A stretch of DNA of 64,000 nucleotides from positions 32,428 to 96,427 of IMG/VR virus record IMGVR_UViG_3300032288_001804; one strand, written 5' to 3'. Made by a program: the position numbers and the translations under genes. Of this stretch, positions 24,592 through 50,232 are shown piece by piece (position 1 is the stretch's first letter; every line of letters starts with the position of its first letter). This stretch comes from a virus. Below the pieces are notes generated by a model, which searched no databases, was not told the origin of the DNA, and saw nothing but the letters and a program-made list of their open reading frames with translations.

Positions 24592-27186
24592 TTAAATTAA
24601 TCCTCCAAACATATAAGGTAATGCGCCTGTACCTGCTGCTTGTGCATATTGTGCAAATGCAGCTGCAGCATTTGGATCACCCATATTATACTGCTGTAAC
24701 ATTTGATTAAACATTTCAACCTCAGGATTTCCAGGATCTTGAATGCTCATACCTTTACCACCAAAAATAACTTGCGCGGCTTTATCTGCAGAAACACCTC
24801 TTCTCATAAGATCATTCATCCTTTGTAATTGTGATTCATACTCATCAAAAGATTTTTGACCTGTAAGATCTTTACCTTTGTTAAAGAATACTAAACCTGA
24901 TGGTTCATCTATAAGGAACTTGTTACCAGACATTGATTCAAGATTAGCTGATGTAGCTGCGTTAACGTCCATAGCATTTTTCAATGCTGTTGTTTGAGCA
25001 ATAAACTCATTTTGAGTTTGCTTATCATTTTGAATCTTTTGCGTCATTTCATCGTAGTAACGCTTAGAGTTTTCTAAGTTATAAGCGTTTGTCTTAAACG
25101 CTAAATCCGCACGAGCTTTCTCAGCATTGTTATAAATCTCATTGTTAGCATTAAAGTATTTACCTAATGTATTAGCAATTTGATTTGATGCTTGAGCCTG
25201 TGTTGAAGCAGCGGCTGCAGCATATCCTTGTGGACTTCCATAGATACCAGCGGCACGTAATGCACCTTGTGCTGTACCCTGTGTTTCAGCAACCTCACGA
25301 CTTGGATCTAAGTATGCTTGGTTAAAACCTACTGGAGCCATAGGGAAAGATGCAGGCATAACATTAGGTTGGTTTGCACCAATAGCTAAGTTAGCTACCA
25401 TGTTATTTACATCTGGTCCCCAATACTGTAGATCAGGTGTTGCTTGTGTATATGTAGGAGATTCCGGGGTTTCAACTGTACTTTCCGTATCCTTAACATC
25501 TTCAAAACCTACCCCTTCTTCTTTAAGACCTTTTACAAATAAACCTTGTCCTGCGGTAGTATTACCAAAGATATCGTCAACAGGAGATATCGCACGTCCT
25601 GCAGCATCTTGTTGATCGCTCATACCTCTTGGTACTAATGTAAAGTTCTCAAGTGTTTTTGCATATTCAGGATCATCAGCCGCAGCTTGAATACCCTTAT
25701 AAGCAGCTTGGAACATTGCAATTTGATCATCATTAAAAATCTCATCATCTTTAAAGCCAATATCTTTAGCTGTTTTTCTATAGACATTGTTTTTATTTCC
25801 ACCACCTTTATCCCAAGTTTTGTTTTTAGTGATAGGATCAATCTTACCTTCTACTTCCGCTTTAGTAATAGCAAAGACTTGTTTTTGAGCTTTTAAAAAG
25901 TTATCCAAAACTTCTTCTGCACTTTTAGATTTTAAAGCAGCTTTTCTAGATGAGCTAAGACCTGAAGCATCAACTTGACGCTTGTACTCTTCATACATGC
26001 GATCAACAATACCTTTATTTGCTGGATCTTTTAATACACCTTCAACATAAGAATAGTCATCAATGTATCCACCAAGACGTGGGTCTGTAACATCTGATTT
26101 TGGCAATTGTTTAGATACAGTAGTCTTAGTTACTTTTTGGTAACCACCATCAGCTTTTACTACATATACCTCTTGCTTATTTTTTGCTTTACCAAACTCT
26201 TCACGCACACGCTTTTGAAAATCTGGATCAGATTCATTTTCATTACGTGTAATAACCGTAGCATTCTCACTAGGTTTAAATTTAGTTACAGTAGTTGTAC
26301 GCCTTGAAGCTGGCTGCTGATTTCCAAATGGTGTATTAATTATGTTACCATAACCATCTACAACATAGGTCATACCTGTAACTCTATCTGTAACAATACG
26401 TGGTTGATTTTGTGCAGTACGCAAATTATTAATGCGTCTTTGCATTCTACGCATTCTACCACTTTGTGCTTTAGGTAATCCGCCATAACGAGCTTGTGGC
26501 ATTTCACCTTCAGCCATCTCGCTATCTTGCATAGTTTCCATTTGCTCATCATCAGAACCAGCTTGCATAGGCATAAGAGCAGAAGGATCTGCGCCTACAC
26601 GCATTAAGTATGGTAATGATAAAGCTGGAATATCTTCAAAGCCTTTGCTAGCTTCTTGAGCTAATGCAATTTGACCTAGTTTATCAATAGAATTTTTAAT
26701 ATTTAATTCAGCAGTACTAACATCCATTTTAGTAGCATTAGGATCTGCCATTACTTGTCTAGCATCATTAATAACACTACCGTATTTCTTAGCTGCGTCA
26801 GCATAAGAAATTTTAGAAGTTTTAGACTTACCTTTTTTAATAGGGTATCCAAAGTATTCTGCTAAGTCCTTTGGCATCTTTAGGAATTTACTAAAGATAA
26901 AGGAATCCTCGGTAGCACGCATAGGTACTCCACCATCAGCATGGGAAGGTCCGTTAATATTAAAGTGTGCTGGCAAACCACCAACATTAGGATCAAGAAT
27001 AGTTTCTCCACCCTCCGCTTCAATATTAGGATTTTCATAGTCAGGTTCTACAGATTTACGTGCTTCCGTTAAAGGTGCTCCTGCAGTATTGTGCACAGAC
27101 CAAGGTGCAATTTGCATAGGAATATTGGGGTAGTGTGTACCACCCCTTTTCATCTCTGGAAGTTTCTTAATAGTAACTTTTCTCAT
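24592..27186 (-). CDS. Internal virion/cargo protein with an N-terminal EAEGGE…GPSHADGGVP domain
   Basis: 864 aa. The EAEGGE/GPSHxxGG motif recalls Bacteroidota-phage internal and tape-measure-type proteins. Ala/Gln-rich helical C-terminus. Confidence 0.6.
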   Translation of the reverse strand: MRKVTIKKLPEMKRGGTHYPNIPMQIAPWSVHNTAGAPLTEARKSVEPDYENPNIEAEGGETILDPNVGGLPAHFNINGPSHADGGVPMRATEDSFIFSKFLKMPKDLAEYFGYPIKKGKSKTSKISYADAAKKYGSVINDARQVMADPNATKMDVSTAELNIKNSIDKLGQIALAQEASKGFEDIPALSLPYLMRVGADPSALMPMQAGSDDEQMETMQDSEMAEGEMPQARYGGLPKAQSGRMRRMQRRINNLRTAQNQPRIVTDRVTGMTYVVDGYGNIINTPFGNQQPASRRTTTVTKFKPSENATVITRNENESDPDFQKRVREEFGKAKNKQEVYVVKADGGYQKVTKTTVSKQLPKSDVTDPRLGGYIDDYSYVEGVLKDPANKGIVDRMYEEYKRQVDASGLSSSRKAALKSKSAEEVLDNFLKAQKQVFAITKAEVEGKIDPITKNKTWDKGGGNKNNVYRKTAKDIGFKDDEIFNDDQIAMFQAAYKGIQAAADDPEYAKTLENFTLVPRGMSDQQDAAGRAISPVDDIFGNTTAGQGLFVKGLKEEGVGFEDVKDTESTVETPESPTYTQATPDLQYWGPDVNNMVANLAIGANQPNVMPASFPMAPVGFNQAYLDPSREVAETQGTAQGALRAAGIYGSPQGYAAAAASTQAQASNQIANTLGKYFNANNEIYNNAEKARADLAFKTNAYNLENSKRYYDEMTQKIQNDKQTQNEFIAQTTALKNAMDVNAATSANLESMSGNKFLIDEPSGLVFFNKGKDLTGQKSFDEYESQLQRMNDLMRRGVSADKAAQVIFGGKGMSIQDPGNPEVEMFNQMLQQYNMGDPNAAAAFAQYAQAAGTGALPYMFGGLI

Positions 27187-27197
27187 CCTATAGATAT

Positions 27198-29915
27198 TTA
27201 TTCTAGTTCATAACCAGCATTAATCAATGCTTGAATTTCCGCATCACTTAAATAGTAAGTACCACCTTCTTGATATTGACCACCCATTTCAAAACCATGT
27301 TCTGGCGCAGTATAACCTTGTTTATTAAATCTATTAGCAATTTTACTGTAGCGATTAGACATTCTATTTTTTTGTCTAAACTCTCTAGCATCAAGATTTG
27401 CTGGTCCATAACCTTTCTCCTCATTATCAGTTAAGTACTGTTCTTTTTGATTTAGCTGGTCAAGTTTAGAACCAAGGTTTTGCAATCTGCTAGTAGCCAT
27501 TCTATTTCTAGCCTTTTCTAAAAAGCTTTTATCTGCATATCCTATATTAGGATTAAATGTACTTGTTAATCTTGTATAATTTGGAGTTAACTCTTCAGGA
27601 GTTGTACCTCTAGCATAGGGATTAAAGTTTTGTGTTGCAAATGGATCAAAGTTTTTAGATTTACTTGGATCACCATTTTGTGTAGTAATTAAGTTACCAT
27701 TAACATCATACTGTACAGAACCTTGTCCAGGCTGATTAGCTCGGATTTTCATTTTAAATCTATTAGGACCTTGTGTAATGTCATAACGATTAATGTTATT
27801 ATCCTTAAACCAAGTGTTATACTGAGCATTTGCACCAGGACCTACAGCAGGAGCACCAGGTACGGTAGTTCCAGCTGCACCAGCAGTTCCTTGACCTTGA
27901 CCTTTTAGCATCATATCGGCCATTGTTTGATTAAACAATGCATTGATATTACGCTTTGTTCTAAAACCAAACAAAGGAGTTTTAGTATAACCAGCTGCCA
28001 TTGCACCTAATAACTGTTGCATTGCAGGATTAAACTGATAGCCACCTGCACCGCCTCCACCTGTATTAGTAGTATTAGTAGTAGTACCCGGAGTTGTAGT
28101 TGAAGCTGCTGGAGTACCAGGTTTACTATAAAAGAAATCCTGATCAGTTGCGACTTTACTTGGATACTTTTTTTCAAGATCCTGAATAGCTTTATCTCTT
28201 TCAGCCTCTAAATTTTTTAATACATTAGGATCCGCATTAGGATTTTTTGAACTTGCAATTTTATTATTTGCAGCAGCTACCTCATAGTCAGTATCAAACT
28301 TTTTAAGAATATCTAAATACTCCTGTTGATACTTATCTTGATTATCACGGGTCATTCTTTGACGAGTAGACGTTGCATAGCCAGGACTATTTTTATGCGG
28401 AATTTGTGTAGTATACGTTAGTGGATTTTGAGCTGTTTCTTGTAACTGATTTCTATCAAGTTTAGCATCGCTAGCCCAGTTACCAGCCATAGTCATAAAA
28501 GCTTGAATATCTTCTTTTTTTGTGTTTGGGTCTGAAATCAAGCTACCCATTGTCTCATTATACCATTTTTCAAAACCAGCAGCATCAGTTGCTGTAGGTT
28601 TTACTATAGCCTTTTTTTGATATCTTGTTATACCACCATACTCTGCAGTAGTAGGTTGTTGTGATTTATTTATCATATCTTGTAGCTTTTGCATGTTTTG
28701 ATAAAATTCAGCATTAGTTTGTTTAGCTTTAGCAATAGGTTTTGAAAATGCATCTTGTGCAGAACTGTATAATCCTTGCATTAACTGAGCATTAGCTTGC
28801 TTAGCTTCATTGGGATCATACATTCCTGTGTAATAAGGGTTAAGAGGATTTTGACTATCAAACCCAAACTCTTGAAAATCACTACCACTCATACCCATAC
28901 CCATTTGAGCCATAGGCATTTCTTGCATCATTTCTTCTGGCATTTCTTGTTGAGCTTGCTCTTGACCTACACCTTGAAGTTGCTGAACCACAGCATCTAC
29001 AATCTGCATAGCTTGCTCCTCAGGAATACCCATCTCAATTAGCTTTTGATCTACTTCTTCAGGAGTAGCTCCTTGCTGTAAAGCTTGAGCTACCATTTGC
29101 ATTAGTTGCTCTTGAGAAGTTTGTTGAGAAGTTTGTTGAGGAGCTTGCATTCCCATTTGAGCAAATCCCATTTCTTCAAATTCACTAAGCTGACCTTTAC
29201 GCTTTTTACCTAAAGCTTTTTGAACTACAGCATTGGCTGACATGTCCTTTAGATAATTTAAAAAGTTATTAGGCTTCTCATAATACTCATAATTCTCAGT
29301 ATTATCGGTAAGCTTTTCTGGTGTAAAGAAACCACCACCCTTTTGAGCAGTTGGTATCCCGTAGTGACTACTATCCATTTTTATTGCATTTTGTATAGGA
29401 GATCCTGCCCCCATTTCATATTTAGGAAGATCTCCCATTTGTCCAAGTTGGTCCGTTGAACCTCCACCTTGAAATGCCATGTAAAGCTGGCCGCCTTTTT
29501 TTGCTGTTGCCATAGGATTTGTGTATGCGCTATTTTGATAGCCAGGTTCATATACAGGAACTTTTTCATTAGGGAAATCTGTAAACTGCCCAGTTGAAGT
29601 AAGCCACGGATATGATCCGTATTTTTTCATTGATGACGTTTCATAAAGATTAAAAGGGTCATTAAGATAATCCCTTTGTGTTTTCTTCATTCTATTTTGG
29701 TCTTGGTAGTTAAGAGCCATTGTTGCTCCTGAAACAAGACCGTGTACAGTATCTCTTAGATAAGGATGATTATCAATAAAGCCGCTCATACCACCCTTAG
29801 GTTGCTTAAGCTTTATATTAAGGTTATTATAAAGGTTTTCTAAATTAACATCACCAGGTTGACTTAACTTGGCAAATGGATTTTGAAACTTTATATATGG
29901 GCTTCCATTTATCAT
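27198..29915 (-). CDS. Low-complexity Gln/Met/Gly-rich internal virion protein with repeated xxxGG motifs
   Basis: 905-aa ORF in the cargo cluster with several AQxGG/YxxGG motifs. Confidence 0.6.
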   Translation of the reverse strand: MINGSPYIKFQNPFAKLSQPGDVNLENLYNNLNIKLKQPKGGMSGFIDNHPYLRDTVHGLVSGATMALNYQDQNRMKKTQRDYLNDPFNLYETSSMKKYGSYPWLTSTGQFTDFPNEKVPVYEPGYQNSAYTNPMATAKKGGQLYMAFQGGGSTDQLGQMGDLPKYEMGAGSPIQNAIKMDSSHYGIPTAQKGGGFFTPEKLTDNTENYEYYEKPNNFLNYLKDMSANAVVQKALGKKRKGQLSEFEEMGFAQMGMQAPQQTSQQTSQEQLMQMVAQALQQGATPEEVDQKLIEMGIPEEQAMQIVDAVVQQLQGVGQEQAQQEMPEEMMQEMPMAQMGMGMSGSDFQEFGFDSQNPLNPYYTGMYDPNEAKQANAQLMQGLYSSAQDAFSKPIAKAKQTNAEFYQNMQKLQDMINKSQQPTTAEYGGITRYQKKAIVKPTATDAAGFEKWYNETMGSLISDPNTKKEDIQAFMTMAGNWASDAKLDRNQLQETAQNPLTYTTQIPHKNSPGYATSTRQRMTRDNQDKYQQEYLDILKKFDTDYEVAAANNKIASSKNPNADPNVLKNLEAERDKAIQDLEKKYPSKVATDQDFFYSKPGTPAASTTTPGTTTNTTNTGGGGAGGYQFNPAMQQLLGAMAAGYTKTPLFGFRTKRNINALFNQTMADMMLKGQGQGTAGAAGTTVPGAPAVGPGANAQYNTWFKDNNINRYDITQGPNRFKMKIRANQPGQGSVQYDVNGNLITTQNGDPSKSKNFDPFATQNFNPYARGTTPEELTPNYTRLTSTFNPNIGYADKSFLEKARNRMATSRLQNLGSKLDQLNQKEQYLTDNEEKGYGPANLDAREFRQKNRMSNRYSKIANRFNKQGYTAPEHGFEMGGQYQEGGTYYLSDAEIQALINAGYELE

Positions 29916-29982
29916 AATGCTAATATACTCATTATACTATATAAGATACTGATTTCTTTAATAATTTCCTAGTTATCATAAC

Positions 29983-32900
29983 TTATTTTAAATTGTCCAA
30001 TACGCTTCTTGTATATTTATTTCTTTCACCTAATGGGACTAGTACTCCATCTTTTTTCACATTTCGTATATAGTTCTTAAGCATCTTTTCATAAGCTTGT
30101 TTTTTTACAGTAGCATCTTTTGTTGTAGAATACTGATTTGCTGCTCCAAAAAAGTTAGGATACTCATTTATAGGAAGACCGTTATAGACAAAGTCTAATG
30201 CAAGTACTTTTAAGTCAGGGTGTAACTTATCAAAAGAACCTTTTCCAAATTTTGTTTCATACTGCTCTAATGTGCGATTAAGATGTTCTTCTACATCATT
30301 ACGCATTAACGCAATAGCCTCATCTTTAGTAAGCCCCTTAGAATATCTACCAGCTTTAACATCATCATCTGTTAACTTATGACCATAACCTATTGTATCA
30401 TTACCACCTTCTTCAGAGGGATATGGATAAAACTTATCCTCTTTTAAGCCCCTATTAACACCATTCTCTTGTTCCATTAATCGTGTATAGTAATCTTCAG
30501 GTATTTTAAACTTTATAGGTTCTGACTTAGGTTTATTAACAGCGTTTATTACTTGATTAAATTGCTCCGATATACTTAGGGTTGGTTTTGGTGTACCAAT
30601 CATAGTTTGCAATTGTTCAAATACTCCAGGTTCTTTTTGTTCTATAGGATACTTCCCATTAAACATATCAGTAACCTTTTGAAATACTTGAGATGGTTCT
30701 TGTGGTTTAGGTTTATAACCAACTTGTTGCATCATATTCATAATACCACCCCCATCTTGTTTTCTTTCTATGTAACGCATTCTTTGTAAATCAGGATCAT
30801 AAACTAAGTTTTGATTTTTACCACCCCAATTACGATCGTTACTTAACATAAAATCTTTATACTCCATCCAACCGGTATCTCCAGGATGAGATTCTCCTGG
30901 TATGTGTGACTTTAACCAAACACCTGTATCAGGGTTAGTACTAAAGCCGTGATACATACCATCATAAGGATCTGGTTGCCAATGAGGATTTTTTTGTAAA
31001 GCTTCTTCAAAAGTTTTAGGCTTGCCTAATGCATCCCACATACCATAGTGATCGTATTGTCTAGGGTTGCCATATTGCCACTCGGAATCAGGTCTTCTAT
31101 TCTCAGGCGCTGTTTCACTGTAGTTTAAAAAATCTTGATAATCATCAGGTAATTCACCACCAGTTTGAGCTTGATTTAAATATAACTCGAAATCACCTTC
31201 ATCAAACATTTCATCATCTACAATAATATCTTGAAATGCTCTATTCCTATTTGCAAGTATTTCTTCTTCTGTAAATCCTCCAGCTTGAGCTTTAGGCAAT
31301 TCATCTTCGTTTGGTGTATCATTAGATACATATGAATCATGGATTTGTTTTAATAAGTCACCCCTGCCTCTAACAACTTTATATAAATCAAGATTTTTGC
31401 TATTTCCAGATTTTACATCCCTATCAATAATTTCTTGTATTTCTTCATTAGTATAGTTTTTTGTAGGATCAATCCCCATGTTCATACGCCACTCATTTGT
31501 GCGTGATCTTACTTCAGTAGGACTATAATAATAATCAATTATATCTTTACTACTACCAACTTTTTTTTGATTTTTAAATGGTAATTTAATAGATATTATT
31601 TCATCTGAAGCAGGCGGCAAACTACCTTTTGGTACAGCATCTTCTCCTAAAAATCTAGCAGTTATAGTTGAAGGAGTAATTTGACCATATGGTAATTTAT
31701 AATCAGATGGTATTATATTATTCAATATAGGGTCGTTAAAATTATATTCCGGCAGACCATTATATTGTCCAAGTAGATATATATTATCATCTTGTGGAAA
31801 ATTATAGTCAAACCAATGACTTCTTTCATGCGCAATAATAGATGGATTACCAAAGCTTTCCGATGGTATATTTACAGATTTTTCATCATGTTTATAAACA
31901 CCACTTGACCCTGGATTTTCTGATATATACTCACCCGTATCACCCCAAGGTTGCATGTTTACACTTTCAATAGCACCTAGCCTTTTATTAGCAATATCTG
32001 TAAACTGTGGAAGTGTAGCTCTTTTCGTATACCAATTTTTTTCCCAAGCTTTAACGTCATCTAAATTATTAAAATAAGTATCTGCGGATTGTGTATTAGC
32101 AATTTGAGATTTCATTGACTCCTGCATTTCAGGTGATTGTTTATTATACCTACGCACAAAATCAGGGTCTGACATTGCCTGTTGCCAAGGATTATATGTA
32201 CTAAAGTCAATATGCTCATAAGGATATCTTTTACCTGACGCTATTCTTACACCGGAATCAGCGTTTGGCATAAAGCTTTGAAAATTATATATAGGACCGC
32301 TACCAAAATAGTTTACATCATTAAGAGCTCGCTTATTAGCATCATGGGGTAACTCTCCTTGTTCTCTATAGACTAAGTATTGTTTTTCATATTCTTGTTT
32401 TTGCTCTGGATTTAAACCTAGAAGTGAATCGCGTTTTACTAAACCTTTCATCTGAGCTTTAGGTAGTGACTTTATCTTAATTCTTTTAAGACTTGGTACT
32501 GAGATATCTCCGCCATATGCTTTATATTGAGGTTGACTTTCACTTTGCATCTCCCATAAATTTAATGCTTGCTGCCAAGGAAATAGTTTATATGCTGGTT
32601 TCATAACATCATTTATGATTGGAGCAGCATATTTTACTTTACCAAACTTTCCTAAAGCTGGTACAGCAGAAAATATACTTAAAGCTTGATCTAAAGTTGG
32701 ATTTTGATTTCCAGAGTTTTTCCAATTTGCATATGCTTCATTAGCATCATCCCATGACATAATTCCAGTTGGTTCTACAAATTCTATTAAAGATCCTATA
32801 GGACTATTAGGTTGTTGATCTTGTGATAAATTTCCAGGTTCTACACTTTCACCTGTTCTAGGCGCACTTAAATCAATAGTTTTATATTTAGATGTATTGC

Positions 32901-33210
32901 TAACCTGTTTTAAATTTTCTTTAGTGGGACCAACTTGTCTTAAAAATTCAGGTTTGTTTCCACCAAATGTTGGAGTTGCACTATTTGTTTGTGCCTTAGG
33001 TAATCTACCCCCATAGACCATCATAGGTATTTCATATACGGCAGTACCTGGAAATGTATAGTTACCTCCAGGCTGCATCATTTTAGCATTGCCTAAATTA
33101 TCAATACCCAATACAGGGTATGGTACACCCTGCATTGTTATATCACCACTTGGAATAATAGTATCCTCACCAGGATATTTCCATTGTCCATACTTACTTA
33201 CTTTAGCCAT
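29983..33210 (-). CDS. Modular virion protein with a HExxH zincin domain and a C-terminal GH24/T4-type lysozyme
   Basis: IIAHERSHW (31816-31830) with downstream PTEVRSR. C-terminal LMEQENG…EGGNDTIGYGHKLT…LTKDEAIALMRNDV…DFVYNG lysozyme signature (~30000-30480). Confidence 0.8.
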   Translation of the reverse strand: MAKVSKYGQWKYPGEDTIIPSGDITMQGVPYPVLGIDNLGNAKMMQPGGNYTFPGTAVYEIPMMVYGGRLPKAQTNSATPTFGGNKPEFLRQVGPTKENLKQVSNTSKYKTIDLSAPRTGESVEPGNLSQDQQPNSPIGSLIEFVEPTGIMSWDDANEAYANWKNSGNQNPTLDQALSIFSAVPALGKFGKVKYAAPIINDVMKPAYKLFPWQQALNLWEMQSESQPQYKAYGGDISVPSLKRIKIKSLPKAQMKGLVKRDSLLGLNPEQKQEYEKQYLVYREQGELPHDANKRALNDVNYFGSGPIYNFQSFMPNADSGVRIASGKRYPYEHIDFSTYNPWQQAMSDPDFVRRYNKQSPEMQESMKSQIANTQSADTYFNNLDDVKAWEKNWYTKRATLPQFTDIANKRLGAIESVNMQPWGDTGEYISENPGSSGVYKHDEKSVNIPSESFGNPSIIAHERSHWFDYNFPQDDNIYLLGQYNGLPEYNFNDPILNNIIPSDYKLPYGQITPSTITARFLGEDAVPKGSLPPASDEIISIKLPFKNQKKVGSSKDIIDYYYSPTEVRSRTNEWRMNMGIDPTKNYTNEEIQEIIDRDVKSGNSKNLDLYKVVRGRGDLLKQIHDSYVSNDTPNEDELPKAQAGGFTEEEILANRNRAFQDIIVDDEMFDEGDFELYLNQAQTGGELPDDYQDFLNYSETAPENRRPDSEWQYGNPRQYDHYGMWDALGKPKTFEEALQKNPHWQPDPYDGMYHGFSTNPDTGVWLKSHIPGESHPGDTGWMEYKDFMLSNDRNWGGKNQNLVYDPDLQRMRYIERKQDGGGIMNMMQQVGYKPKPQEPSQVFQKVTDMFNGKYPIEQKEPGVFEQLQTMIGTPKPTLSISEQFNQVINAVNKPKSEPIKFKIPEDYYTRLMEQENGVNRGLKEDKFYPYPSEEGGNDTIGYGHKLTDDDVKAGRYSKGLTKDEAIALMRNDVEEHLNRTLEQYETKFGKGSFDKLHPDLKVLALDFVYNGLPINEYPNFFGAANQYSTTKDATVKKQAYEKMLKNYIRNVKKDGVLVPLGERNKYTRSVLDNLK

Positions 33211-36200
33211 TAGCGAGGAGATAAAGTTTCTTTCATATTGTTAATCTTATAAAGCATCTTGGTGTTATTCTGACCAGGTGCATTTTCTCTAATAAGTCTT
33301 AATCTGTTTACATAGTGGCGGAACTTCTTACGTTGGAAAGCTGGCTTACTATAATTAATATTATTAGGATTTAACAAAGATATATAACCATTTGCTTGTG
33401 TATCCCACATTTGAGTTACAAATCCGGTGTATTCGCCACGGTCTCTGGTTAAATCTACAAATTGGTTAAAGCGATATTTATTCTCTTCTTTAGAATATAG
33501 TATGTCTACGTATGTTGGAGTATATGTAGGATACTGCATTGCAAGAGCCGGGTTATTCTTTGGGTGTAAGTTTAATCTCAACTCACCAGATACCTGCTCA
33601 GAGTTATATACTATAGCTTTATTAAAGTTATAATCAAGTACATGAAATCTGTCATAACCATCTTGGCTATAAATATAAGCCTCAAGTATATATTCCATGC
33701 TCTTAATAGATGTAACAGTTTGGCCGTTAGAAACTACTTCTTCTACTTCAAATGGATAATCAACTCCATAGAAGTTTGTATAGCTTGAAGTACTTTCATT
33801 ATGCTTCCAGATGTTAGGACCCTTAGTTGTAAGAATACTCATCTTAGATGGCATCATTAAATCAGGATGCCAGTCATGAAATGAGATAAATGCTTTAGCT
33901 TTAGGATCATAACTTACCGTCCAAGATGCATCTTCAAAATACAATGGATCGCCTAGTGTTACAGTTATTGAGGTAACCTGACCATTAATAACCTTCTTAA
34001 AGATATCCTTCTTATCATAGACAAGTCCTGAAGGCGCATCTATTTTTAATTTAAAATCTCTTTTAGTAAAGTATATAATTTGATTTTTATTATCAAATGA
34101 TGCTTGACAACCAATACCTGCTATAGGATTTCTTACTAATTCAAAATCTGGAAAATCTTCTAAAAGCTTATATGGTAAGTATTTTGCAAACCACCACTTT
34201 AATCCTGCTGTAGAAATCTCTTCTAAAGATTGACCAATACCAAATATTTTACCTTGGCTTTGAGCAATATAATATAGTCCTAATGGAGTATTGATAACGC
34301 TCAATGGATCTTGAGTAGATGCATATTGGTAAGCAGAGTCTGCATTACTAAAGCTTTGTAATGGTTGTGAGAATAAACTACCATCTCCAATATTAATCTT
34401 TGTACCTAAATCCAATTCTAAATTTTCTACAGTACGTGTCATTACTGGTGAATCTTTTTCAGTAAAAATTATCACACCACTTTGGTCATATGGTTTAACA
34501 GATATCACCTTAGACTTAAAGTCTTTATAGTTAAATGTTAAAAAGACTTGCCAGTAATCTTTAACCGCCTCTAAGTTTTGAGGCAAAGAATATATAAGAC
34601 GGTTAGGATAATAAGTAAAACATTTCTCAGCTACATATGGATTGTAACTAATAGGTTGAACATTACCCCAACTAATTAAATCATGGTACGTCTTAGAAAT
34701 ACCAAGAGACATATCATACTTAAAGAAATTACCAGCTTTGATAATACTAGGTTCAAATAGTGCTTCAGTATCTGCATATCTGTATGGGTCATAGAATCTT
34801 TGATCATCTTGGTTACCCCAGTCACGATAGCTTATGTTAAGCTCTGTTTCTACAAAGAAATCTCTAACCCCAGATTGGAATAAATAAAAAAATGCATTCT
34901 TTACACCAAATCTAAAGCTAACATTAAAGTTGGTACCACCACCACCTAATGAACCAGAAGGTGAATAGTTTCTTCTATCTAAATGATGATAGTTAGATGG
35001 AATATCCCAAGTATTTGAGCTTATACTACCTGGTGATAATAAATCACCTACCATGCTACCAAGAGCTCCCATTGCATCATACTCGCTTAAATTAGCCCAA
35101 TATCTTGGATATGATATCATATAGTGTAGCCCATAATCAAACTGGGTACCATCTGGTTGACCATAAAGCCAATCTCTAAAATAGAAGAAAGTATTTTTTT
35201 CGGTATATCTTCCTATGTATACGTCACCACCATATACAATAGAACCTGGTACTTTTTTACCTTTATCATTTTGTGTTAATGTTGCAAATGTAGTATTACT
35301 GCATGAACCAAAATTACCATCAATTGGTTTTACAATAGTTCTGCAGCCTGAAGGAACTTGTAATACACTATCAATTTGACCATAAAGGTTAGGTCTTCTT
35401 ATTTTAAATCCAGCATAGTATGATGAAGCTGTAGTATCAAAATCTTGCTTAATAATATCTAAAAAATCATATTCATTTGCAGTTAGTCCTGCTGTAGTAT
35501 CATTATCAATATCAAATTGAACACCAATTGTAGTAAGAGAATTATCTACTATACTTGGATCAGCAATATTATTACTTGCTTCAAACATTACAGCTCTTCC
35601 TCTATATAAATTATTTACTCGATAGCTTACTTGTGTACTATCTGATGCGGGAAAAGTTTGTAGTAAATTATCTAAGTAATAAGATCGCTCAACTTTACGA
35701 CGATGGTTACCTATTTGTACATTACCAATAATGTTATTTGTTAAATCACCATGTGATAAATATCTATAGGCATACTGTCTATATTTTGTACTAGCTTTTA
35801 TAAGCTCTACGAAATTAGAAAGACCCATTCCCCAGTAACTCATAAATGTAACTATACCATAGGTTGAAGCAATACCTGGGTCTAGCATTTGCTGACCAGA
35901 TAATTCAAGATCTAAATTTTCACTAAAGCCAATTTTTACTTTAGAGTCCTTATAAAAATCATTATCAGAAAGTGTATGATAAAAACCAGTTACATCATAG
36001 TTTTGACCATATCCGAAAATTGCATTCCACGCCTGATTATTACCTCCTAAATTAAATAGGTTATTGGTATCATTAATACCAGACTCAACAGTATCATCAG
36101 ATCCTGGACCTTGTATTTGACCATCTACATATAAAGGAACTTCAAACTTAGCAACATCTGGAATATCATTAGCGGGGTCATCCCAATATGGGTCTGGCGT

Positions 36201-48291: not shown

Positions 48292-48996
48292 TTAGTTATT
48301 TTGTTCAGAAGCATTAGACTCCCGAGTATATTGATTAAATGATTCTATATCTCCGGCAAGAATTGATGCTGCTACATCTACAAGTACTTCAACAACATCA
48401 TCTGGAAATTCGCATAATACTTCTTCTGTTGATGTCTGTAGGGTATAGGGGTCTGCGCAACCCAGAATTTGAATTCTTGTTGGAACTTTATAGTAAGTTG
48501 CTTTAATAGATTTTACAGTAAACTCATCATTAGTATAAACTTTAACTTTACTTGACATCATCGTTGCAAAAGTCTCACGCCATTCAAAACTTGGCTTACG
48601 CAAAAAATCATTAAGTAAAACACTAACGTTAGCCTCCTCTGCTAAATATACCACCATATCTTTCTCCTCATTGCAGCATTTACTTACTGCTTTAACATCT
48701 ATTCTTTTAAACTCCATCCAGTCATCTGGTAATGCTTCAGTAATAACATATTTATCACCATAAGTAAAAGCAAGATCTTCAGATTTAAGCATAATCATAA
48801 GATCATCAATCTTACGATTACTTTGCTCATCCCCTTGTCTAAGAATATTGTTACCAACAAGTTGACGGCGCACCCACTCTATTTGAGCTTTATTAAAAGC
48901 TTCAACTATTTGCCAACATTCAAAGTTGTCATAGTCTTGGCTATCAAGCTTGTTGAGTCGCTCCTTAATCTTTATTTGTATGGTAGTATTATTCAT
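48292..48996 (-). CDS. Ring / head-tail adaptor protein
   Basis: LNKLDSQDY…FNKAQ…YYKVP…CEFPDDVVEVLVD resembles crAss ring proteins. Confidence 0.65.
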   Translation of the reverse strand: MNNTTIQIKIKERLNKLDSQDYDNFECWQIVEAFNKAQIEWVRRQLVGNNILRQGDEQSNRKIDDLMIMLKSEDLAFTYGDKYVITEALPDDWMEFKRIDVKAVSKCCNEEKDMVVYLAEEANVSVLLNDFLRKPSFEWRETFATMMSSKVKVYTNDEFTVKSIKATYYKVPTRIQILGCADPYTLQTSTEEVLCEFPDDVVEVLVDVAASILAGDIESFNQYTRESNASEQNN

Positions 48997-49142
48997 TTCT
49001 TAGAACCACCTTTTTTCTTAATAACACCGCGTCCTTTAAGAATATCAGCTTTGGTTATTTTACCATCTTTATTAAGATCTGGAAATTTTTTTGATCCCCC
49101 AGCTTTCATTTTAACAGAACCACAAGTTGCACACTTTTTCAT
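48993..49142 (-). CDS. 49-aa basic microprotein with an EF-hand/dockerin-like loop
   Basis: Hand translation MKKCATCGSVKMKAGGSKKFPDLNKDGKITKADILKGRGVIKKKGGSKK. ATGA overlap with the next gene. Confidence 0.7.
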   Translation of the reverse strand: MKKCATCGSVKMKAGGSKKFPDLNKDGKITKADILKGRGVIKKKGGSKK

Positions 49143-49154
49143 AGTATTATAGTT

Positions 49155-49400
49155 TTAGCATTTCCATTTTCTAAGTGACTTATTAATCCTGCTATTAGGA
49201 TCATTAGCCGTTTTAGCACTAGTAAGCTTCTTCTTCATCCCAGACATTCTTGCACAAAAGCTTTTCTTTCTAGGCCCACCCTCTGGTTGAGGTGCTTTAA
49301 TATCATGACCTGCAGCTTTTAAAGATGCACGTCCTTTAGCGTTAAGTCCTCCACTTGGAGACTTACCTTCTTTTCTTTGCCATGCTGGACTTTTTGCCAT
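49155..49400 (-). CDS. 81-aa basic phage protein (DUF6321-like)
   Basis: GGLNAKGRAS…RKKSFCARMSG…SRINKSLRKWKC. Confidence 0.75.
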   Translation of the reverse strand: MAKSPAWQRKEGKSPSGGLNAKGRASLKAAGHDIKAPQPEGGPRKKSFCARMSGMKKKLTSAKTANDPNSRINKSLRKWKC

Positions 49401-49626
49401 TGTCTTTAGGATAAGGGTTTTCTCTATGCCATTTTTTTGTAGCTGCTACTCCTTCGCGTACTGTTTTTGCACCAGCTTTTTTAGTAAGGTTTATGGTATC
49501 CCATTCACCTTTATCTTTAGTAGGATGGTTAACCATTATATCCCCGGGTTTGCCTTTACCTATCTTGTTAGTCTTTTTATAAACCACATGTTTTTCACCT
49601 CCGGCAGATACTCTAGTCTTTGCCAT
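49363..49626 (-). CDS. 87-aa basic protein (start revised to MAKTRV…)
   Basis: ATG at 49626 lies just after the upstream stop. The longer start at 49713 would overlap the 49628-49777 ORF. Confidence 0.65.
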   Translation of the reverse strand: MAKTRVSAGGEKHVVYKKTNKIGKGKPGDIMVNHPTKDKGEWDTINLTKKAGAKTVREGVAATKKWHRENPYPKDNGKKSSMAKKRR

Positions 49627-49627
49627 A

Positions 49628-49777
49628 CTATTTCTTTTTAGCAGTCTTAGCAGACTGGATAAAATCTTTTTTGCTAGGAGCACCCTTTGCCCCTGGCTTA
49701 CGCATCTTCTCACCAGAGCCGGCAGCTATGCGAGCTCTTTTAGCATGAATGTTAGCGTATAATCCTTGCTTTGCCAT
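49628..49777 (-). CDS. 49-aa basic microprotein
   Basis: Hand translation MAKQGLYANIHAKRARIAAGSGEKMRKPGAKGAPSKKDFIQSAKTAKKK. Tightly tiled with its neighbours. Confidence 0.75.
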   Translation of the reverse strand: MAKQGLYANIHAKRARIAAGSGEKMRKPGAKGAPSKKDFIQSAKTAKKK

Positions 49778-49778
49778 A

Positions 49779-49919
49779 CTATTTATTTTTAGCCATTTTT
49801 TTAAATGTCATTGCTAATGCTTTCCGTTTAGGAGTGCATGTAGCTTTAGTCATAGGTGTACAGTAACCTTTATGTTTAGGATTAACAGCTTTTTGAATCC
49901 ACTTTTTATCTTTAGCCAT
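49779..49919 (-). CDS. 46-aa basic microprotein
   Basis: Hand translation MAKDKKWIQKAVNPKHKGYCTPMTKATCTPKRKALAMTFKKMAKNK. Confidence 0.7.
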   Translation of the reverse strand: MAKDKKWIQKAVNPKHKGYCTPMTKATCTPKRKALAMTFKKMAKNK

Positions 49920-49924
49920 AAAGA

Positions 49925-50050
49925 TTATTTTTTACAACCACAACCAGATTTCTTGGAAGCCGTAGCACCACCTTTTTTATAGGTGGTACCATTGGGCTTA
50001 CCATATGAAATCATTTTCTTTTTTTGTTCAGGCGTTAATAAAGGGTTCAT
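49925..50050 (-). CDS. 41-aa basic microprotein
   Basis: Hand translation MNPLLTPEQKKKMISYGKPNGTTYKKGGATASKKSGCGCKK. ATGA overlap with the upstream ORF. Confidence 0.6.
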   Translation of the reverse strand: MNPLLTPEQKKKMISYGKPNGTTYKKGGATASKKSGCGCKK

Positions 50051-50232
50051 CCTTTACGCTTTGGGCTTACTTCAGCAGATTTATTACCACCACCTGAGCG
50101 ACCTTTAGCTACACGCTGAACTTGTGCAGAAGCGTTTCCGCCACCAACACGTCCACCAGGAGTTTTTTGTACCATAACGGAAGCATTAGGATTTTTAACA
50201 CCACCTGTCATCATTTTTTTAACCTTTTTCAT
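50047..50232 (-). CDS. 61-aa basic Gly-rich protein with internal repeats
   Basis: MKKVKKMMTGG…, with three imperfect (GG)N-x-S-x-x-V repeats. Confidence 0.65.
   Translation of the reverse strand: MKKVKKMMTGGVKNPNASVMVQKTPGGRVGGGNASAQVQRVAKGRSGGGNKSAEVSPKRKG

What the first reader, a model, noticed from the sequence alone, without database searches (positions are those of the whole stretch)
24592..33210. Recurrent [A/M/Y/F/K]xxGG (often LPKAQxGG) motif punctuates three cargo proteins: packaging tag or processing site
Seen in the 1075-aa protein: MVYGG, LPKAQTN, KAYGG, LPKAQMKG, LPKAQAGG, AQTGG, KQDGG. In the 905-aa protein: AKKGG, FQGGG, PKYEMG, AQKGG, AQMG (twice), AEYGG, FEMGG, YQEGG. In the 864-aa protein: MKRGG, ARYGG, LPKAQSG and C-terminal YMFGG. 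Copies fall at termini and at domain boundaries. The tiny basic proteins carry the same motif (MMTGG, YKKGG, MKAGG, KKKGG). Known: adenovirus protease cuts (M/L/I)xGG|x, ASFV polyproteins are cut after GG, and T4 uses a capsid-targeting peptide. Inference: this is either a short linear signal that loads unrelated proteins into the head, or a maturation cleavage site that turns these ORFs into polyproteins, perhaps cut by the cargo zincins.
Basis: partly seen in the sequence, partly recalled or inferred. Interest (0 to 1): 0.8.

Follow-up and report, generated by a model that had tools for sequence, protein, structure and literature searches.

The report
Cap peptides on phage cargo modules
Three large proteins that this crAss-like phage probably carries in its particle and injects are built from swappable modules, each capped by the same short peptides, which look more like recognition or docking tags than proven cutting sites.

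Summary

- **Enrichment:** the motifs are enriched in the three ORFs against the other 88 ORFs of the 96-kb genome.
- **Conservation:** they are conserved in the 864-aa and 905-aa families.
- **Module boundaries:** 125 of 180 internal BLAST segment ends of the 1075-aa ORF lie within 12 residues of a copy. Random anchors give 14%.

The "motif" is really three cap peptides:
- aromatic/basic-x-x-GG;
- (KRVKIKS)LPKAQxG;
- a C-terminal L-S-x-E-E-I...GYxΦE piece.

Caps abut where modules are fused. They sit at protein ends where genes are split. In a 1.84-billion-protein library, 31 of 49 tag-bearing proteins end with a terminal variant of the tag.

Selection acts on the peptide, not the DNA. I found no recognisable GG-protease. 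The closest complete relative keeps the junctions without the cargo zincin.

Best reading: recognition/docking caps (0.45). Cleavage is not excluded (0.3). The scan has already noted this junction in at least 12 other genomes. I found no published description.

The parts
29983..33210 (-). 1075-aa modular cargo ORF. Module A is residues 1-75, a second module about 76-230, the HExxH zincin-like module B 256-637, module C about 686-860, and a lysozyme-like module about 895-1075.
   Evidence: 78 homologues share separate pieces, with HSP blocks at 1-75, 231-645, 680-860 and 905-1075. PHROG 4290 lysozyme domain E 1.6e-8 at residues 895-1010. HExxH at 461-465.
32983..33030 (-). End of module A plus a short junction: IPMMVYGG-R-LPKAQ-TN (residues 61-76).
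   Evidence: PSSM score 19.8. 38 HSP ends fall in the 60-79 bin.
32443..32523 (-). Long junction KAYGG-DISVPS-LKRIKIKS-LPKAQ-MKG (residues 230-256).
   Evidence: PSSM score 35.3. This is the only internal match of the tag core in the genome. It was the first sequence of profile A3.
31813..31833 (-). AHERSHW, the HExxH motif of accessory zincin-like module B.
   Evidence: The module is absent from the close relative G001, which keeps its junctions. No match to Pfam MPTase-PolyVal.
31276..31302 (-). Junction E-LPKAQ-AGG (residues 637-645) at the C-terminal edge of module B.
   Evidence: PSSM score 28.5.
31156..31179 (-). Degenerate LPKAQ-type cap LNQAQTGG (residues 678-685) at the start of module C.
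   Evidence: Homologues have ..SLPKAQTGIPADYQ.. or ..MPKAQDGLPADYE.. at the equivalent place. 22 HSP ends fall in the 680-699 bin.
30745..30765 (-). Junction remnant RKQDGGG (residues 816-822).
   Evidence: Homologue P0022 has ..YIERKKEGGSLPKAQ.. at the equivalent place. HSP ends cluster at 800-860.
27198..29915 (-). 905-aa cargo ORF. It is Gly/Gln-rich with many caps and no Pfam or PHROG family.
29331..29507 (-). Cluster of caps in the 905-aa ORF: TAKKGG..MAFQGGG (137-152), DLPKYEMGAG (162-171), IPTAQKGGG (187-195).
   Evidence: Each is conserved in at least 9 of the 16 aligned family members. In L021 the first site reads QRQYGG-GIPKAQ.
28890..29165 (-). Two AQMG caps (FAQMGM 251-256, MAQMGMGM 335-342) flanking a Gln-rich helical module.
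   Evidence: Conserved in 11-12 of 16 sequences. The same module type is inserted inside the junction of 864-family homologues.
28632..28649 (-). TAEYGG cap (residues 423-428), a module insertion point.
   Evidence: 6 of 16 homologues carry an insert of about 110 aa here, flanked by ARYGG and MKRGG.
27201..27299 (-). C-terminal array HGFEMGG-QYQEGG (873-885) followed by the C-cap TYYLSDAEIQALINAGYELE (886-905).
   Evidence: Conserved across the family. Relatives have 3-7 tandem Y-x-x-GG units. ORFs ending in the C-cap are followed by an ORF that starts with the N-terminal tag in 16 of 16 unique pairs.
24592..27186 (-). 864-aa conserved cargo ORF, the probable counterpart of crAss001 cargo protein 1.
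   Evidence: 49 homologues, mostly full length at 45-98% identity. Weak similarity to the CARG1 domain. It sits between the muzzle gene and a gene I read as C2-like, as gp45 does.
27139..27186 (-). N-terminal tag MRKVTIKKLPEMKRGG (residues 1-16).
   Evidence: Conserved in 42 of the 50 aligned sequences. It matches the tag regex that otherwise hits only ORF starts and junctions.
26848..27027 (-). CARG1-like domain core (residues 54-113). The GGs at 59, 69 and 85 are inside it and are not linker motifs.
   Evidence: Near-invariant block. hhalign against gp45 478-543 gave E 0.0042. Pfam PF25725 was sub-threshold at E 0.24.
26458..26493 (-). Junction ARYGG-LPKAQ-SG (residues 232-243), a module insertion point.
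   Evidence: G235, G236 and G243 are invariant in 50 sequences. About 15 homologues carry a 170-200 aa module inserted here with the junction duplicated around it. PSSM score 14.5.
24595..24615 (-). C-terminal cap YMFGGLI (residues 858-864).
   Evidence: Present as Y[MR]FGGLI in 35 of 50 aligned sequences.
48993..50232 (-). Seven tiny basic ORFs of 41-87 aa (pI 10.0-12.0). Five contain GG; four carry the basic or Met-type Φ-K-x-GG form.
   Evidence: The 49-aa ORF has 363 homologues at E<=0.01. Of the best 120, 112 contain GG, most often preceded by K at -2 and M/K/F/L/Y at -3.

Best explanation
The three ORFs lie between the tail muzzle gene and the giant RNA-polymerase-type genes. They are the C1-type cargo (ejection) proteins of a divergent crAss-like phage and are mosaics of exchangeable modules.

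Each module carries short conserved cap peptides:
- an upstream cap, (K/R)-V-K-I-K-S-LPKAQ-x-G;
- downstream caps, aromatic-or-basic-x-x-G-G, sometimes followed by L-(S/T)-x-E-E-I-x-x-L-x-x-x-G-Y-x-hydrophobic-E.

Where two modules share one ORF, the caps abut and give the YGG...LPKAQxGG junction. Where modules are separate genes, the caps sit at the protein ends.

**Shown:** the modular build, the caps at boundaries and termini, their position-independence, and peptide-level selection.

**Inferred:** the caps are recognition handles. A common partner binds them, either inside the procapsid, portal or tail lumen, or on a neighbouring cargo chain. This would recruit any module into the particle and hold the cargo as a flexible string that can be threaded N-to-C through the tail. 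Cutting at the caps is not required by this model and has not been shown.
For: 1. **Boundaries.** 125 of 180 internal HSP ends of the 1075-aa ORF lie within 12 aa of six motif copies. Random anchors give 13.7%, and 0 of 5000 trials reached the observed value.
2. **Insertions duplicate the cap.** Whole modules are inserted inside a cap, which is then duplicated around the insert. This is seen in about 15 of 50 sequences of the 864-aa family at ARYGG-LPKAQ and in 6 of 16 of the 905-aa family at AEYGG.
3. **Termini.** 25 of 82 unique locus ORFs, from at least four protein families, start with M-(R/K)-(K/R)-V-x-I-x-x-LP. Internally the tag core matches only 7 times in 80,423 aa, and all 7 are junctions.
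4. **C-terminal variant.** In the 1.84-billion-protein library, 49 of 57 profile hits carry the tag. Of those 49, 31 end with a terminal variant (..RVKIxxLP(K/N)NWK..), and 6 also start with the tag.
5. **C-cap.** 16 of the 78 homologues of the 1075-aa ORF, plus the 905-aa family, end in the C-cap. Three homologues show it fused directly to LPKAQ.
6. **Pairing.** Every ORF ending in the C-cap is followed by an ORF starting with the tag: 16 of 16 unique pairs, none without. The cultured phage Lbo-JY46 shows the same pairing.
7. **Conserved when fused.** G235, G236 and G243 are invariant in 50 sequences.
8. **Peptide-level selection.** Synonymous codon diversity at tag and junction residues is 0.318 (n=10) against 0.334 elsewhere (n=289), p 0.41. 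Junction copies use different codons.
9. **Tandem arrays.** 3-7 Y-x-x-GG units occur in tandem. This suits multivalent binding better than cutting.
[quoted passage not shown] The authors expect ejection N to C (PMC10172136, section 10 read in full and passages). gp45 is also enriched in aromatic-GG: 9 observed vs 3.4 expected, p 0.003, the top of 34 ORFs.
Against:
- Flanking of every module by the same short peptide is also the classic layout of a processed polyprotein.
- In the tiny proteins, a variable leader ends in a conserved Φ-K-x-GG just before a conserved core. This resembles a cleaved leader.
- A targeting role does not obviously need many copies per protein.
- Many of the 16 C-cap/N-tag pairs are the same orthologous gene pair. 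Only about four or five are independent.
- Assignment of the 864-aa ORF to the portal-bound CARG1 domain is weak: hhalign probability 8%, E 0.0042; Pfam below cut-off; no hit in a PDB profile search.
Confidence: 0.45

Rival explanations
1. Maturation cleavage sites. The caps are cut, either after GG or just before LPKAQ, by a phage or host protease. Fused modules and tiny-protein precursors would then be released as separate products, as with adenovirus or African swine fever virus GG sites, or the T4 head protease acting on capsid-targeting leaders (these parallels are recalled).
For: - Each module is flanked on both sides by the same peptide, and inserts duplicate it.
- Gene fission and fusion happen exactly at the caps, so split and fused forms would converge on the same products.
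- Tiny basic proteins have variable leaders ending in Φ-K-x-GG before a conserved core. Two tiny proteins are found fused right after KKKGG.
- The 864-aa ORF has a 16-residue N-terminal piece ending in GG and two residues after its C-terminal GG.
- Three cargo or giant ORFs carry HExxH. A conserved Leu-Pro just after the putative cut would suit a metalloprotease (recalled knowledge).
- Iyer et al. 2017 predicted zincin processing of polyvalent proteins (PMC5512222, passages).
Against: - No C48, C5, C39, S78 or S77 family in this genome. No C39, C48 or S78 in the complete relative. Prok-JAB gave only a 12-residue noise match.
- The three ORFs have no cysteine.
- The module-B zincin is absent from the closest complete relative, which keeps its junctions. 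MPTase-PolyVal was not detected.
- Separately encoded proteins keep the caps at their ends, and 31 of 49 tag-bearing proteins end in the tag with nothing downstream to release.
- Some N-terminal tags have no GG nearby, for example the 652-aa ORF of L001.
- Tandem arrays would give hexapeptides if cut.
- crAss001 virion bands at 150, 270 and >300 kDa fit uncut giants (PMC6235969, methods passage). A425-FGG-W of gp45 lies inside a continuous cryo-EM model.
Confidence: 0.3
2. Hinge or permissive linker only. The caps are flexible Gly-rich joints that merely tolerate module insertion and gene fission. They recur because modules move together with their flanks, and no partner reads them.
For: - The ORFs are Gly-rich, 7.7-8.7% G against 5.7% in the rest of the genome.
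- The loose xxxGG pattern is only modestly above composition.
- Several GGs are not conserved.
- Module shuffling is extensive.
Against: - A hinge does not need an invariant LPKAQ, a conserved basic strand or a distinct C-terminal variant. These are kept across very different modules and protein families.
- They are kept at free protein ends, where no hinge is needed.
- There is no DNA-level conservation that would make the caps recombination sites.
Confidence: 0.12
3. Snap-together joint. Separately encoded cargo proteins would then form one non-covalent chain, complementing the terminal-cysteine chain proposed earlier for the giants of this genome.
For: - C-cap followed by N-tag in 16 of 16 unique adjacent pairs, and no C-cap without a following tag.
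- The same pairing occurs in Lbo-JY46.
- Where the 1492-aa gene is split in relatives, the break is followed by an N-tag ORF in both L011 and L016. L011 also carries a terminal C-cap, while L016 has only a C-cap-like segment about 40 residues before its end. Our unsplit gene has only a Thr/Ser-rich linker at this place.
- Opposite charges: the C-cap is acidic and the tag is basic.
- The giants have terminal cysteines, as the earlier notes e1-6028353 and e1-6028350 report.
Against: - This does not explain why the caps stay conserved when the modules are already covalently fused.
- It does not explain the C-terminal tag variant or the 5 N-tags without an upstream C-cap.
- Only about four or five gene pairs are independent.
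- No co-variation test was possible.
Confidence: 0.13

Closest known systems
Cargo protein 1 (gp45) of Bacteroides phage crAss001 (Bayfield et al. 2023, PMC10172136; PDB 7qog, 7qoi, 7qoj, 7qol, 8ckb; Pfam PF25725 crAss_CARG1)
   Same: - Same genomic place, after the muzzle gene and before the C2-like and RNA-polymerase genes.
- gp45 is also punctuated by aromatic-GG: AYGG 209, AFGG 332, AYCGG 391, AFGG 427, AYGG 562 and a basic GG-rich C-terminus. It shows 9 copies vs 3.4 expected.
- Short gp45 segments dock on tail and portal.
- The 864-aa ORF shows weak CARG1 similarity.
   Different: - gp45 has no LPKAQ and no KVKIKSLP strand.
- Here the equivalent is spread over three ORFs that also carry enzyme modules.
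- The CARG1 match is below Pfam's cut-off, and neither the PF25725 search of this genome nor a PDB profile search found it.
- The paper does not mention the motif. The words cleav-, proteoly- and protease do not occur in its text.
Polyvalent proteins of phages and conjugative elements (Iyer, Burroughs, Anand, de Souza, Aravind 2017, PMC5512222)
   Same: - Large injected proteins that string together unrelated enzyme domains.
- Homologues of the 1075-aa ORF carry LysM, YkuD, SLT, glucosaminidase, amidase_2, VanY, SET and ART-PolyVal domains.
- The paper predicts processing by zincin-like peptidases.
   Different: - The passages I read describe no conserved junction peptide. The word 'linker' occurs 0 times and 'crAss' 0 times.
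- The family's MPTase-PolyVal zincin was not detected here.
N-terminal capsid-targeting sequence of T4 internal proteins, removed by the T4 head protease (recalled, not checked in any call)
   Same: A short shared terminal peptide on unrelated proteins that are packed into the head and injected. The tag and the cut site are combined in one element.
   Different: - Here the peptide also occurs internally and at C-termini.
- No S77-type head protease was found.
- The sequence is unrelated.
Encapsulin cargo-loading peptides (recalled, not checked in any call)
   Same: Short terminal peptides that load unrelated cargo into a shell built from an HK97-fold protein. This phage's major capsid protein matches a crAss-type major head protein family.
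   Different: No shell-binding site is known in any crAss-like capsid. Here the copies are multiple, include internal ones, and are combined with GG units.
   Same: Gly-Gly at the boundaries of structural or core protein precursors. Small basic DNA-associated proteins carry the site.
   Different: - No clan CE protease family was detected.
- The hydrophobic residue sits one place further from GG than the adenain rule requires.
- These are HK97-lineage phages.

Membership tests
crAss-like (Crassvirales-type) virion module | Syntenic TerL, portal, major capsid protein, tail and muzzle genes, followed by cargo and giant RNA-polymerase-type genes on one strand. | tested here: met
   PHROG hits: TerL 2.4e-58, portal 4.2e-92, major head protein 2.2e-31; the 1785-aa ORF matches a virion structural family at 1.4e-46. 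Gene order matches crAss001 gp19-gp47. The portal is only 22-32% identical to named phages.
Cargo protein 1 / Pfam PF25725 crAss_CARG1 | A match to the CARG1 portal-bound domain above Pfam's cut-off of 27 bits. | tested here: inconclusive
   - gp45 itself scores 222 bits.
- 864-aa residues 94-137 score 11.9 bits, E 0.24.
- 5 of 50 family members match at E<=1, best 0.025.
- hhalign E 0.0042, probability 8%.
- 5 of 30 ESM Atlas feature hits are CARG1 clusters, score 0.92.
- No match in the own-genome PF25725 search or the PDB profile search.
Cargo protein 1 / virion cargo | Physically present in virions and bound to portal or tail. | not testable with these tools
   This is an uncultured phage. 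Presence in the virion is inferred from synteny with crAss001.
Polyvalent proteins (Iyer et al. 2017) | Two or more domains of disparate biochemical activity in one polypeptide of a phage or mobile element. | tested here: met
   The 1075-aa ORF has an HExxH module plus a lysozyme-like domain. Homologues add LysM, YkuD, SLT, glucosaminidase, SET, ART-PolyVal, VanY and amidase domains.
Polyvalent proteins (Iyer et al. 2017) | An MPTase-PolyVal zincin (PF18818) as the processing peptidase. | tested here: not met
   No match at E<=1 in the genome. The HExxH module of the 1075-aa ORF has no Pfam family.
GG-cleaved viral or leader-peptide systems (adenain C5, Ulp-like C48, double-glycine C39) | A cognate cysteine protease encoded by the element. 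| tested here: not met
   No C5, C48 or C39 in G000. No C39 or C48 in the complete relative G001. The three ORFs have no Cys. A novel or host protease is not excluded.
GG-cleaved viral or leader-peptide systems | Experimentally observed termini after GG. | not testable with these tools
   No proteomic data are available for any LPKAQ carrier. No paper on Lbo-JY46 is in the library.
Head-maturation protease systems (T4 S77, HK97 S78) | A prohead protease gene in the head module. | tested here: not met
   No S78 or S77 in G000. No S78 in G001. The only ORF between portal and capsid genes is an acidic 400-aa protein with no PHROG family.
Terminal cargo-loading or targeting peptides (T4 capsid-targeting sequence, encapsulin loading peptides) | A short conserved peptide shared by unrelated cargo proteins and located at a terminus. 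| tested here: met
   N-terminal tag on 25 of 82 locus ORFs from at least four families. C-terminal variant on 31 of 49 tag-bearing proteins.
Terminal cargo-loading or targeting peptides | The peptide is necessary and sufficient for encapsidation and binds a shell, scaffold or portal site. | not testable with these tools
   Needs reporter fusions or binding assays.

The most novel reading that the evidence does not exclude
The caps form a general cargo code of a large clade of crAss-like phages. The code consists of the K-V-K-I-K-S-LPKAQ-x-G strand, its C-terminal NWK variant, the Φ-x-x-GG units and the GYxΦE C-cap. Under this reading, any module bearing them is recruited to a common site in the procapsid or tail lumen, strung into an ordered chain with its neighbours, and injected, whether the module is an enzyme or a 40-residue basic peptide. 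Evolution could then swap effectors freely, and a foreign protein could be loaded simply by adding the cap.
Probability: 0.3. Interest if true: 0.85.

Novelty: new variant of a known kind. Interest (0 to 1): 0.62.

Why it matters
crAss-like phages are among the most abundant viruses known. How they choose, pack and eject up to several megadaltons of protein cargo is unresolved.

A short, position-independent peptide code shared by all cargo modules would do three things:
- give a direct experimental handle on cargo loading and ordered ejection;
- explain how these phages shuffle injected effectors so freely;
- offer a simple tag for loading proteins into phage particles in laboratory systems.

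If the caps turn out to be cut instead, this would be the first maturation protease system for the group. Either outcome is testable in three cultured phages that carry parts of the code: Lbo-JY46, phi17:2 and crAss001.

Tried and rejected
**Rejected or unsupported readings**
- **DNA-level recombination site: rejected.** Junction copies use different synonymous codons. Synonymous diversity at invariant tag and junction residues equals that of the rest of the gene (0.318 vs 0.334, p 0.41).
- **Read-through or frameshift joining the 905-aa and 864-aa ORFs: rejected.** The spacers computed from the coordinates are 11, 12, 8, 14, 61 and -1 nt in different relatives, so there is no constant frame.
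- **Module-B zincin as the processing enzyme: disfavoured.**
- **The PKAQ copy in the 1492-aa ORF as a junction: rejected.** It has no GG context and a low PSSM score.
- **DUF5754 as module A: rejected.** The Pfam match in P0036 lies in a different small domain.
- **BLASTP of the 864-aa and 905-aa ORFs against gp45:** nothing significant.

**Searches that found nothing or little**
- tblastn of the 1075-aa and 864-aa ORFs against 50,697 phage records: no match.
- The viral-contig scans found only one relative contig.
- Profile of the 864-aa family against PDB: no gp45 hit.
- 8 of the 57 profile hits in the big library are unrelated repeat proteins, leucine-rich-repeat-like or cadherin-like. I dropped them from the counts.
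- Literature: 'LPKAQ' anywhere in the text gave 9 unrelated papers. 'Crassvirales' + 'cargo protein' + 'portal' from 2023 gave 5 papers (3 listed); none of those listed concerns such a motif (search listing only). 'crAss-like' + 'prohead protease' gave 11 papers (9 listed); none is relevant by title or abstract. 'Lbo-JY46' gave 0. The first search, 'crAss' + 'cargo proteins' + 'cleavage', was swamped by Neurospora crassa papers.

**Papers, and what I saw of each**
- PMC10172136: section 10 in full, plus passages.
- PMC5512222: passages only.
- PMC6235969: section 7 in full, plus methods passages.
- Figures, extended-data tables and supplements of these papers were not seen. They may hold gel labels or peptide maps that bear on cleavage.

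**Recalled, from no call:** T4 capsid-targeting sequence and head protease, encapsulin loading peptides, double-glycine leaders, ubiquitin-like GG ends, metalloprotease preference for a hydrophobic residue after the cut, and sticky aromatic-Gly low-complexity segments.

Full report
**Setting**

The window is the right-hand 64 kb of a 96,427-bp virus record. All late genes run on the minus strand in this order:
- TerL (57105-59318)
- portal (54345-57101)
- an acidic 400-aa ORF
- major capsid protein (51367-53004)
- seven tiny basic ORFs (48993-50232)
- tail genes
- a 1785-aa muzzle-type ORF (33210-38567)
- the three ORFs of the finding: 1075 aa, 905 aa and 864 aa
- giants of 1492, 2063, 3326 and 2738 aa

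The order matches crAss001 gp19 to gp50, in which gp44 is the muzzle, gp45 and gp46 are cargo proteins C1 and C2, and gp47-50 are polymerase-associated (PMC10172136 section 10).

The phage is a distant relative. Its portal is at most 31.7% identical to any named phage. The best matches are Leptolyngbya phage Lbo-JY46, csAssE-Sib and Cellulophaga phages. CheckV rates the record 81% complete.

- Exact PKAQ occurs five times in the window's ORFs, four of them in the three ORFs of the finding.
- A scoring matrix trained only on homologues of the 1075-aa ORF picks out that ORF's three copies and, independently, the 864-aa copy. Their scores (14.5-35.3) exceed the maximum of 20 shuffled proteomes (13.0).
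- Against the rest of the 91-ORF proteome, GG is 3.5-fold denser in the three ORFs and [FYWMKRQ]GG about 6-fold denser.

The loose xxxGG definition is weaker. Within-protein shuffles give p 0.027, 0.043 and 0.21 for the 864-, 1075- and 905-aa ORFs, and the capsid protein also reaches p 0.047. Part of the signal is therefore Gly-rich composition. The strong part is LPKAQ, the basic strand and the conserved copies.

**Conservation and boundaries**

The 1075-aa ORF has 78 homologues that share it piecewise. The shared blocks are residues 1-75, 231-645, 680-860 and 905-1075. Homologues combine these with LysM, YkuD, SLT, glucosaminidase, amidase, VanY, SET and ART-PolyVal domains. This is the polyvalent-protein build of Iyer et al. 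2017.

Of 180 internal HSP ends, 125 (69.4%) lie within 12 residues of six motif copies. Random anchors give 13.7%, and none of 5000 trials reached the observed value. The four other GGs of the protein collect only 18.9% of HSP ends.

Those 78 proteins hold 88 PKAQ copies in 85 distinct contexts.
- Leu precedes PKAQ in 70 of the 85 contexts.
- Gly stands at +2 or +3 after the Gln in 43-44 of the 85.
- A GG lies upstream within 24 residues in 63 of the 85, most often at a spacing of 2, 9-10 or 15 residues.

The 864-aa ORF differs from the 1075-aa ORF in having conserved full-length homologues: 49 of them, mostly at 45-98% identity.
- Its N-terminal MRKVTIKKLPxMKxGG, its ARYGG-LPKAQ-xG and its C-terminal YMFGGLI are kept.
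- G235, G236 and G243 are invariant in all 50 aligned sequences.
- Four other GGs (residues 347, 372, 461, 809) are not conserved.
- Three GGs (59, 69, 85) lie inside a near-invariant folded block.

In the 905-aa family (16 sequences from the loci), most listed copies are conserved. So is a C-terminal array (Y-x-x-GG units) followed by TYYLSDEEIQALINAGYELE.

**Caps, not just linkers**

Three results change the picture.

*1. Insertions duplicate the cap.* Whole modules are inserted inside a cap, and the cap is then duplicated around the insert.
- About 15 of the 50 sequences of the 864-aa family carry a 170-200 aa module between ..MFGG-TKRRLRRAQDG and ..QQGGE-LPKAQ-RG.
- 6 of the 16 sequences of the 905-aa family carry an insert of about 110 aa between ARYGG and MKRGG.

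*2. Caps sit at protein ends where modules are separate genes.* I examined 18 metagenome loci and one viral contig.
- 25 of 82 unique ORFs start with M-(R/K)-(K/R)-V-x-I-x-x-LP. They come from the 864-aa family, a 418-652 aa family, the second half of a split 1492-type gene, and others.
- Internally the tag core matches only 7 times in 80,423 residues, and every match is a junction.
- In this genome it occurs in real ORFs only at the 864-aa N-terminus and in the long junction of the 1075-aa ORF.

A profile of six long junctions was searched against 1.84 billion representative proteins and gave 57 hits at E<=0.001.
- 49 of the 57 carry the tag. The other 8 are unrelated repeat proteins.
- 31 of the 49 end with a terminal variant (GG...RVKIxxLP(K/N)NWK..).
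- 6 of the 49 also start with the tag.

*3. There is a third cap.* It reads ..GG-x3-8-L-(T/S)-x-x-E-I-x-x-Y-x-x-x-G-Y-x-Φ-E-E.
- It ends 16 of the 78 homologues of the 1075-aa ORF, and it ends the 905-aa family.
- In three proteins it is fused directly to LPKAQ.
- Every ORF ending in it is followed by an ORF that starts with the tag: 16 of 16 unique adjacent pairs, against 5 tags without it and 33 pairs with neither. Many of these pairs are orthologous, so only four or five are independent.

The cultured phage Lbo-JY46 shows the same pairing. Its 674-aa protein ends ..LIELGYDFEVV, and the next gene, of 484 aa, starts MKIRIIGLPKAQIG.

Cellulophaga phi17:2 gp041, annotated as a virion structural protein, has many F-Q-x-GG units but no LPKAQ.

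crAss001 gp45 has aromatic-GG units but no LPKAQ. Both gp041 and gp45 are the top ORFs of their regions for aromatic-before-GG, p 0.003.

**Level of selection**

Junction copies differ at synonymous sites. In 11 orthologues of the 864-aa gene, codon diversity at invariant tag and junction residues equals that of the rest of the gene: 0.318 (n=10) against 0.334 (n=289), p 0.41. The peptide is what is conserved, not a DNA recombination site.

**Tiny proteins**

The tiny ORFs have pI values of 10.0-12.0. The close relative G001 has seven small basic ORFs in the same stretch; six match ours, and the 87-aa ORF was not recovered.

In the 49-aa protein and its 52-aa G001 counterpart the middle differs, while KMK(A/S)GGS and the C-terminal KKGG are retained.

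The 49-aa protein has 363 homologues at E<=0.01.
- Of the best 120, 112 contain GG.
- K dominates at -2, and M, K, F, L or Y at -3.
- The core is a single EF-hand/dockerin-like loop.
- Dockerin_1 scores E 0.0031 for our protein, which is below Pfam's cut-off. A two-loop homologue passes the cut-off.
- Two tiny proteins are found fused right after KKKGG.

**Cut or not?**

Evidence that makes cutting less likely, or leaves it unsupported:
- I found no Pfam C48, C5, C39, S78 or S77 protease in this genome. I found no C39, C48 or S78 in the complete relative G001. Prok-JAB gave only a 12-residue noise match.
- The three ORFs contain no cysteine.
- HExxH motifs exist in the 1075-, 2738- and 3326-aa ORFs. 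MPTase-PolyVal was not detected. G001 keeps four LPKAQ junctions without any HExxH in its cargo cluster.
- In crAss001, gp45 residues 425-552 form one modelled domain on the portal, and that domain begins A-F-G-G-W, so this copy is uncut.
- Shkoporov et al. report crAss001 virion bands at 150, 270 and >300 kDa, which fit uncut giants. I could not see the gel labels.
- Tandem arrays of 3-7 Y-x-x-GG units and tags at extreme C-termini fit multivalent recognition better than cutting.

Evidence that keeps cutting open:
- Flanking of every module by the same peptide is the classic polyprotein layout.
- The leader-like N-termini of the tiny proteins resemble cleaved leaders.
- No proteomic data exist for any LPKAQ carrier.

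**Most likely mechanism**

I read the caps as recognition handles (confidence 0.45). A common partner would bind the amphipathic basic strand, its terminal variant and the Φ-x-x-GG units. That partner could sit in the procapsid, portal or tail lumen, or on neighbouring cargo chains. Binding would recruit each module and hold the cargo as a flexible string ready for N-to-C ejection.

This is inference. It rests on the position-independence of the caps and on the crAss001 precedent of short cargo segments docked on tail rings and portal.

The rivals are:
- cleavage sites (0.3);
- a pairwise snap-together joint between the C-cap and the next protein's N-tag (0.13), which would extend the terminal-cysteine chain that earlier notes proposed for the giants of this genome (cysteine positions);
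- a hinge with no reader (0.12).

**Identity of the 864-aa ORF**

It is probably the C1 counterpart, but the evidence is weak.
- hhalign aligns residues 93-181 with gp45 478-543, inside the CARG1 domain, at E 0.0042 and probability 8%.
- Pfam gives E 0.24 for residues 94-137.
- 5 of 50 family members match at E<=1.
- 5 of 30 ESM Atlas feature hits are CARG1 clusters.
- The own-genome PF25725 search and a PDB profile search found nothing.
- gp45 is present in the PDB as 'Cargo protein 1 gp45' (7qog and four more entries).

**Novelty**

I found no description of the junction or the caps in the searchable literature. The crAss001 structure paper does not use the words for cleavage or protease.

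This scan has already recorded the same junction in 13 earlier findings from at least 12 other genomes, and all of them left the cut-versus-dock question open. The earlier notes as listed do not mention the following points from this report, though I saw only their short summaries:
- the terminal forms of the tag, including the C-terminal variant;
- the third cap and its pairing with the next gene's tag;
- duplication of caps around inserted modules;
- the codon-level test;
- the absence of the zincin from a junction-keeping relative;
- the nature and spread of the tiny proteins.

**Limits**

- Supplementary files and figures were not seen.
- The ORF sets in the loci come from my own simple ORF caller (ATG starts only; 150 aa minimum in the loci, 40 aa in the genome).

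Noticed in passing
window 48993-49142 (-): The 49-aa tiny basic ORF is a single EF-hand/dockerin-like calcium-binding loop (FPDLNKDGKITKADILKGRG) between two K-x-GG units. It has 363 small homologues at E<=0.01, some with two loops that pass Pfam Dockerin_1, on contigs up to 125 kb. It could be a mini-dockerin, which would imply a cohesin-like partner in the particle.
   Followed up: partly
window 49155-49400 (-): The 81-aa tiny basic ORF matches Pfam DUF6321 (E 2.4e-18). The neighbouring 87-, 49-, 46-, 41- and 61-aa ORFs have pI 10-12 and no family. Together the seven ORFs carry a net charge of about +93, as expected of DNA-condensing internal proteins.
   Followed up: partly
window 53031-54233 (-): The only ORF between the portal and capsid genes is a 400-aa acidic protein (net charge -28) with no PHROG family. 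Its position suits a scaffolding protein, and it is a possible partner for the basic tags.
   Followed up: no
window 20050-24528 (-), about residues 520-650; loci L011 3018-6979 and L016 9876-14206: In two relatives the 1492-aa gene is split into two ORFs. In L011 the first half ends in the C-cap (..EEGYVFEETE); in L016 only a C-cap-like segment lies about 40 residues before the end. In both, the second half starts with a basic V-x-V/I..(A/L)P tag. The unsplit gene here has a Thr/Ser/Ala-rich linker at that place.
   Followed up: partly
genome C1:25731-26447 (outside the window, minus strand, downstream of the 2738-aa giant): Two more small basic ORFs carry the motif. A 53-aa ORF has RSGG, YKKGG and MKKGG. 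A 131-aa ORF has YLQKKGG followed by a helix-like segment.
   Followed up: no
window 3876-20047 (-) and genome C1:28083-36299: The giants have almost no cysteine except near their ends: 3326-aa ORF Cys 4 and 3326; 2738-aa ORF Cys 4; 2063-aa ORF Cys 1139 and 2062. This agrees with the earlier terminal-cysteine notes on this genome. Two of the giants also carry HExxH motifs (2738-aa residue 941, 3326-aa residue 789).
   Followed up: partly
L022 (Leptolyngbya phage Lbo-JY46, PP438436.1 62001-112000): A cultured cyanobacterial phage has the full crAss-like late module (muzzle, module-A protein, C-cap protein, LPKAQ-tagged protein, giants). It is the closest named relative by portal (31.7% identity). 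The library holds no paper on it.
   Followed up: partly
L002 41987-44515 (crAss001 gp45): By eye, the gp45 N-terminus (basic K-K-K-I-K-R-R..PPNI) resembles the 864-aa family N-terminal tag (R-K-V-T-I-K-K-LP..YPNI). Residues 559-590 look like an aromatic-GG unit followed by a C-cap-like helix. Neither resemblance was tested statistically.
   Followed up: no
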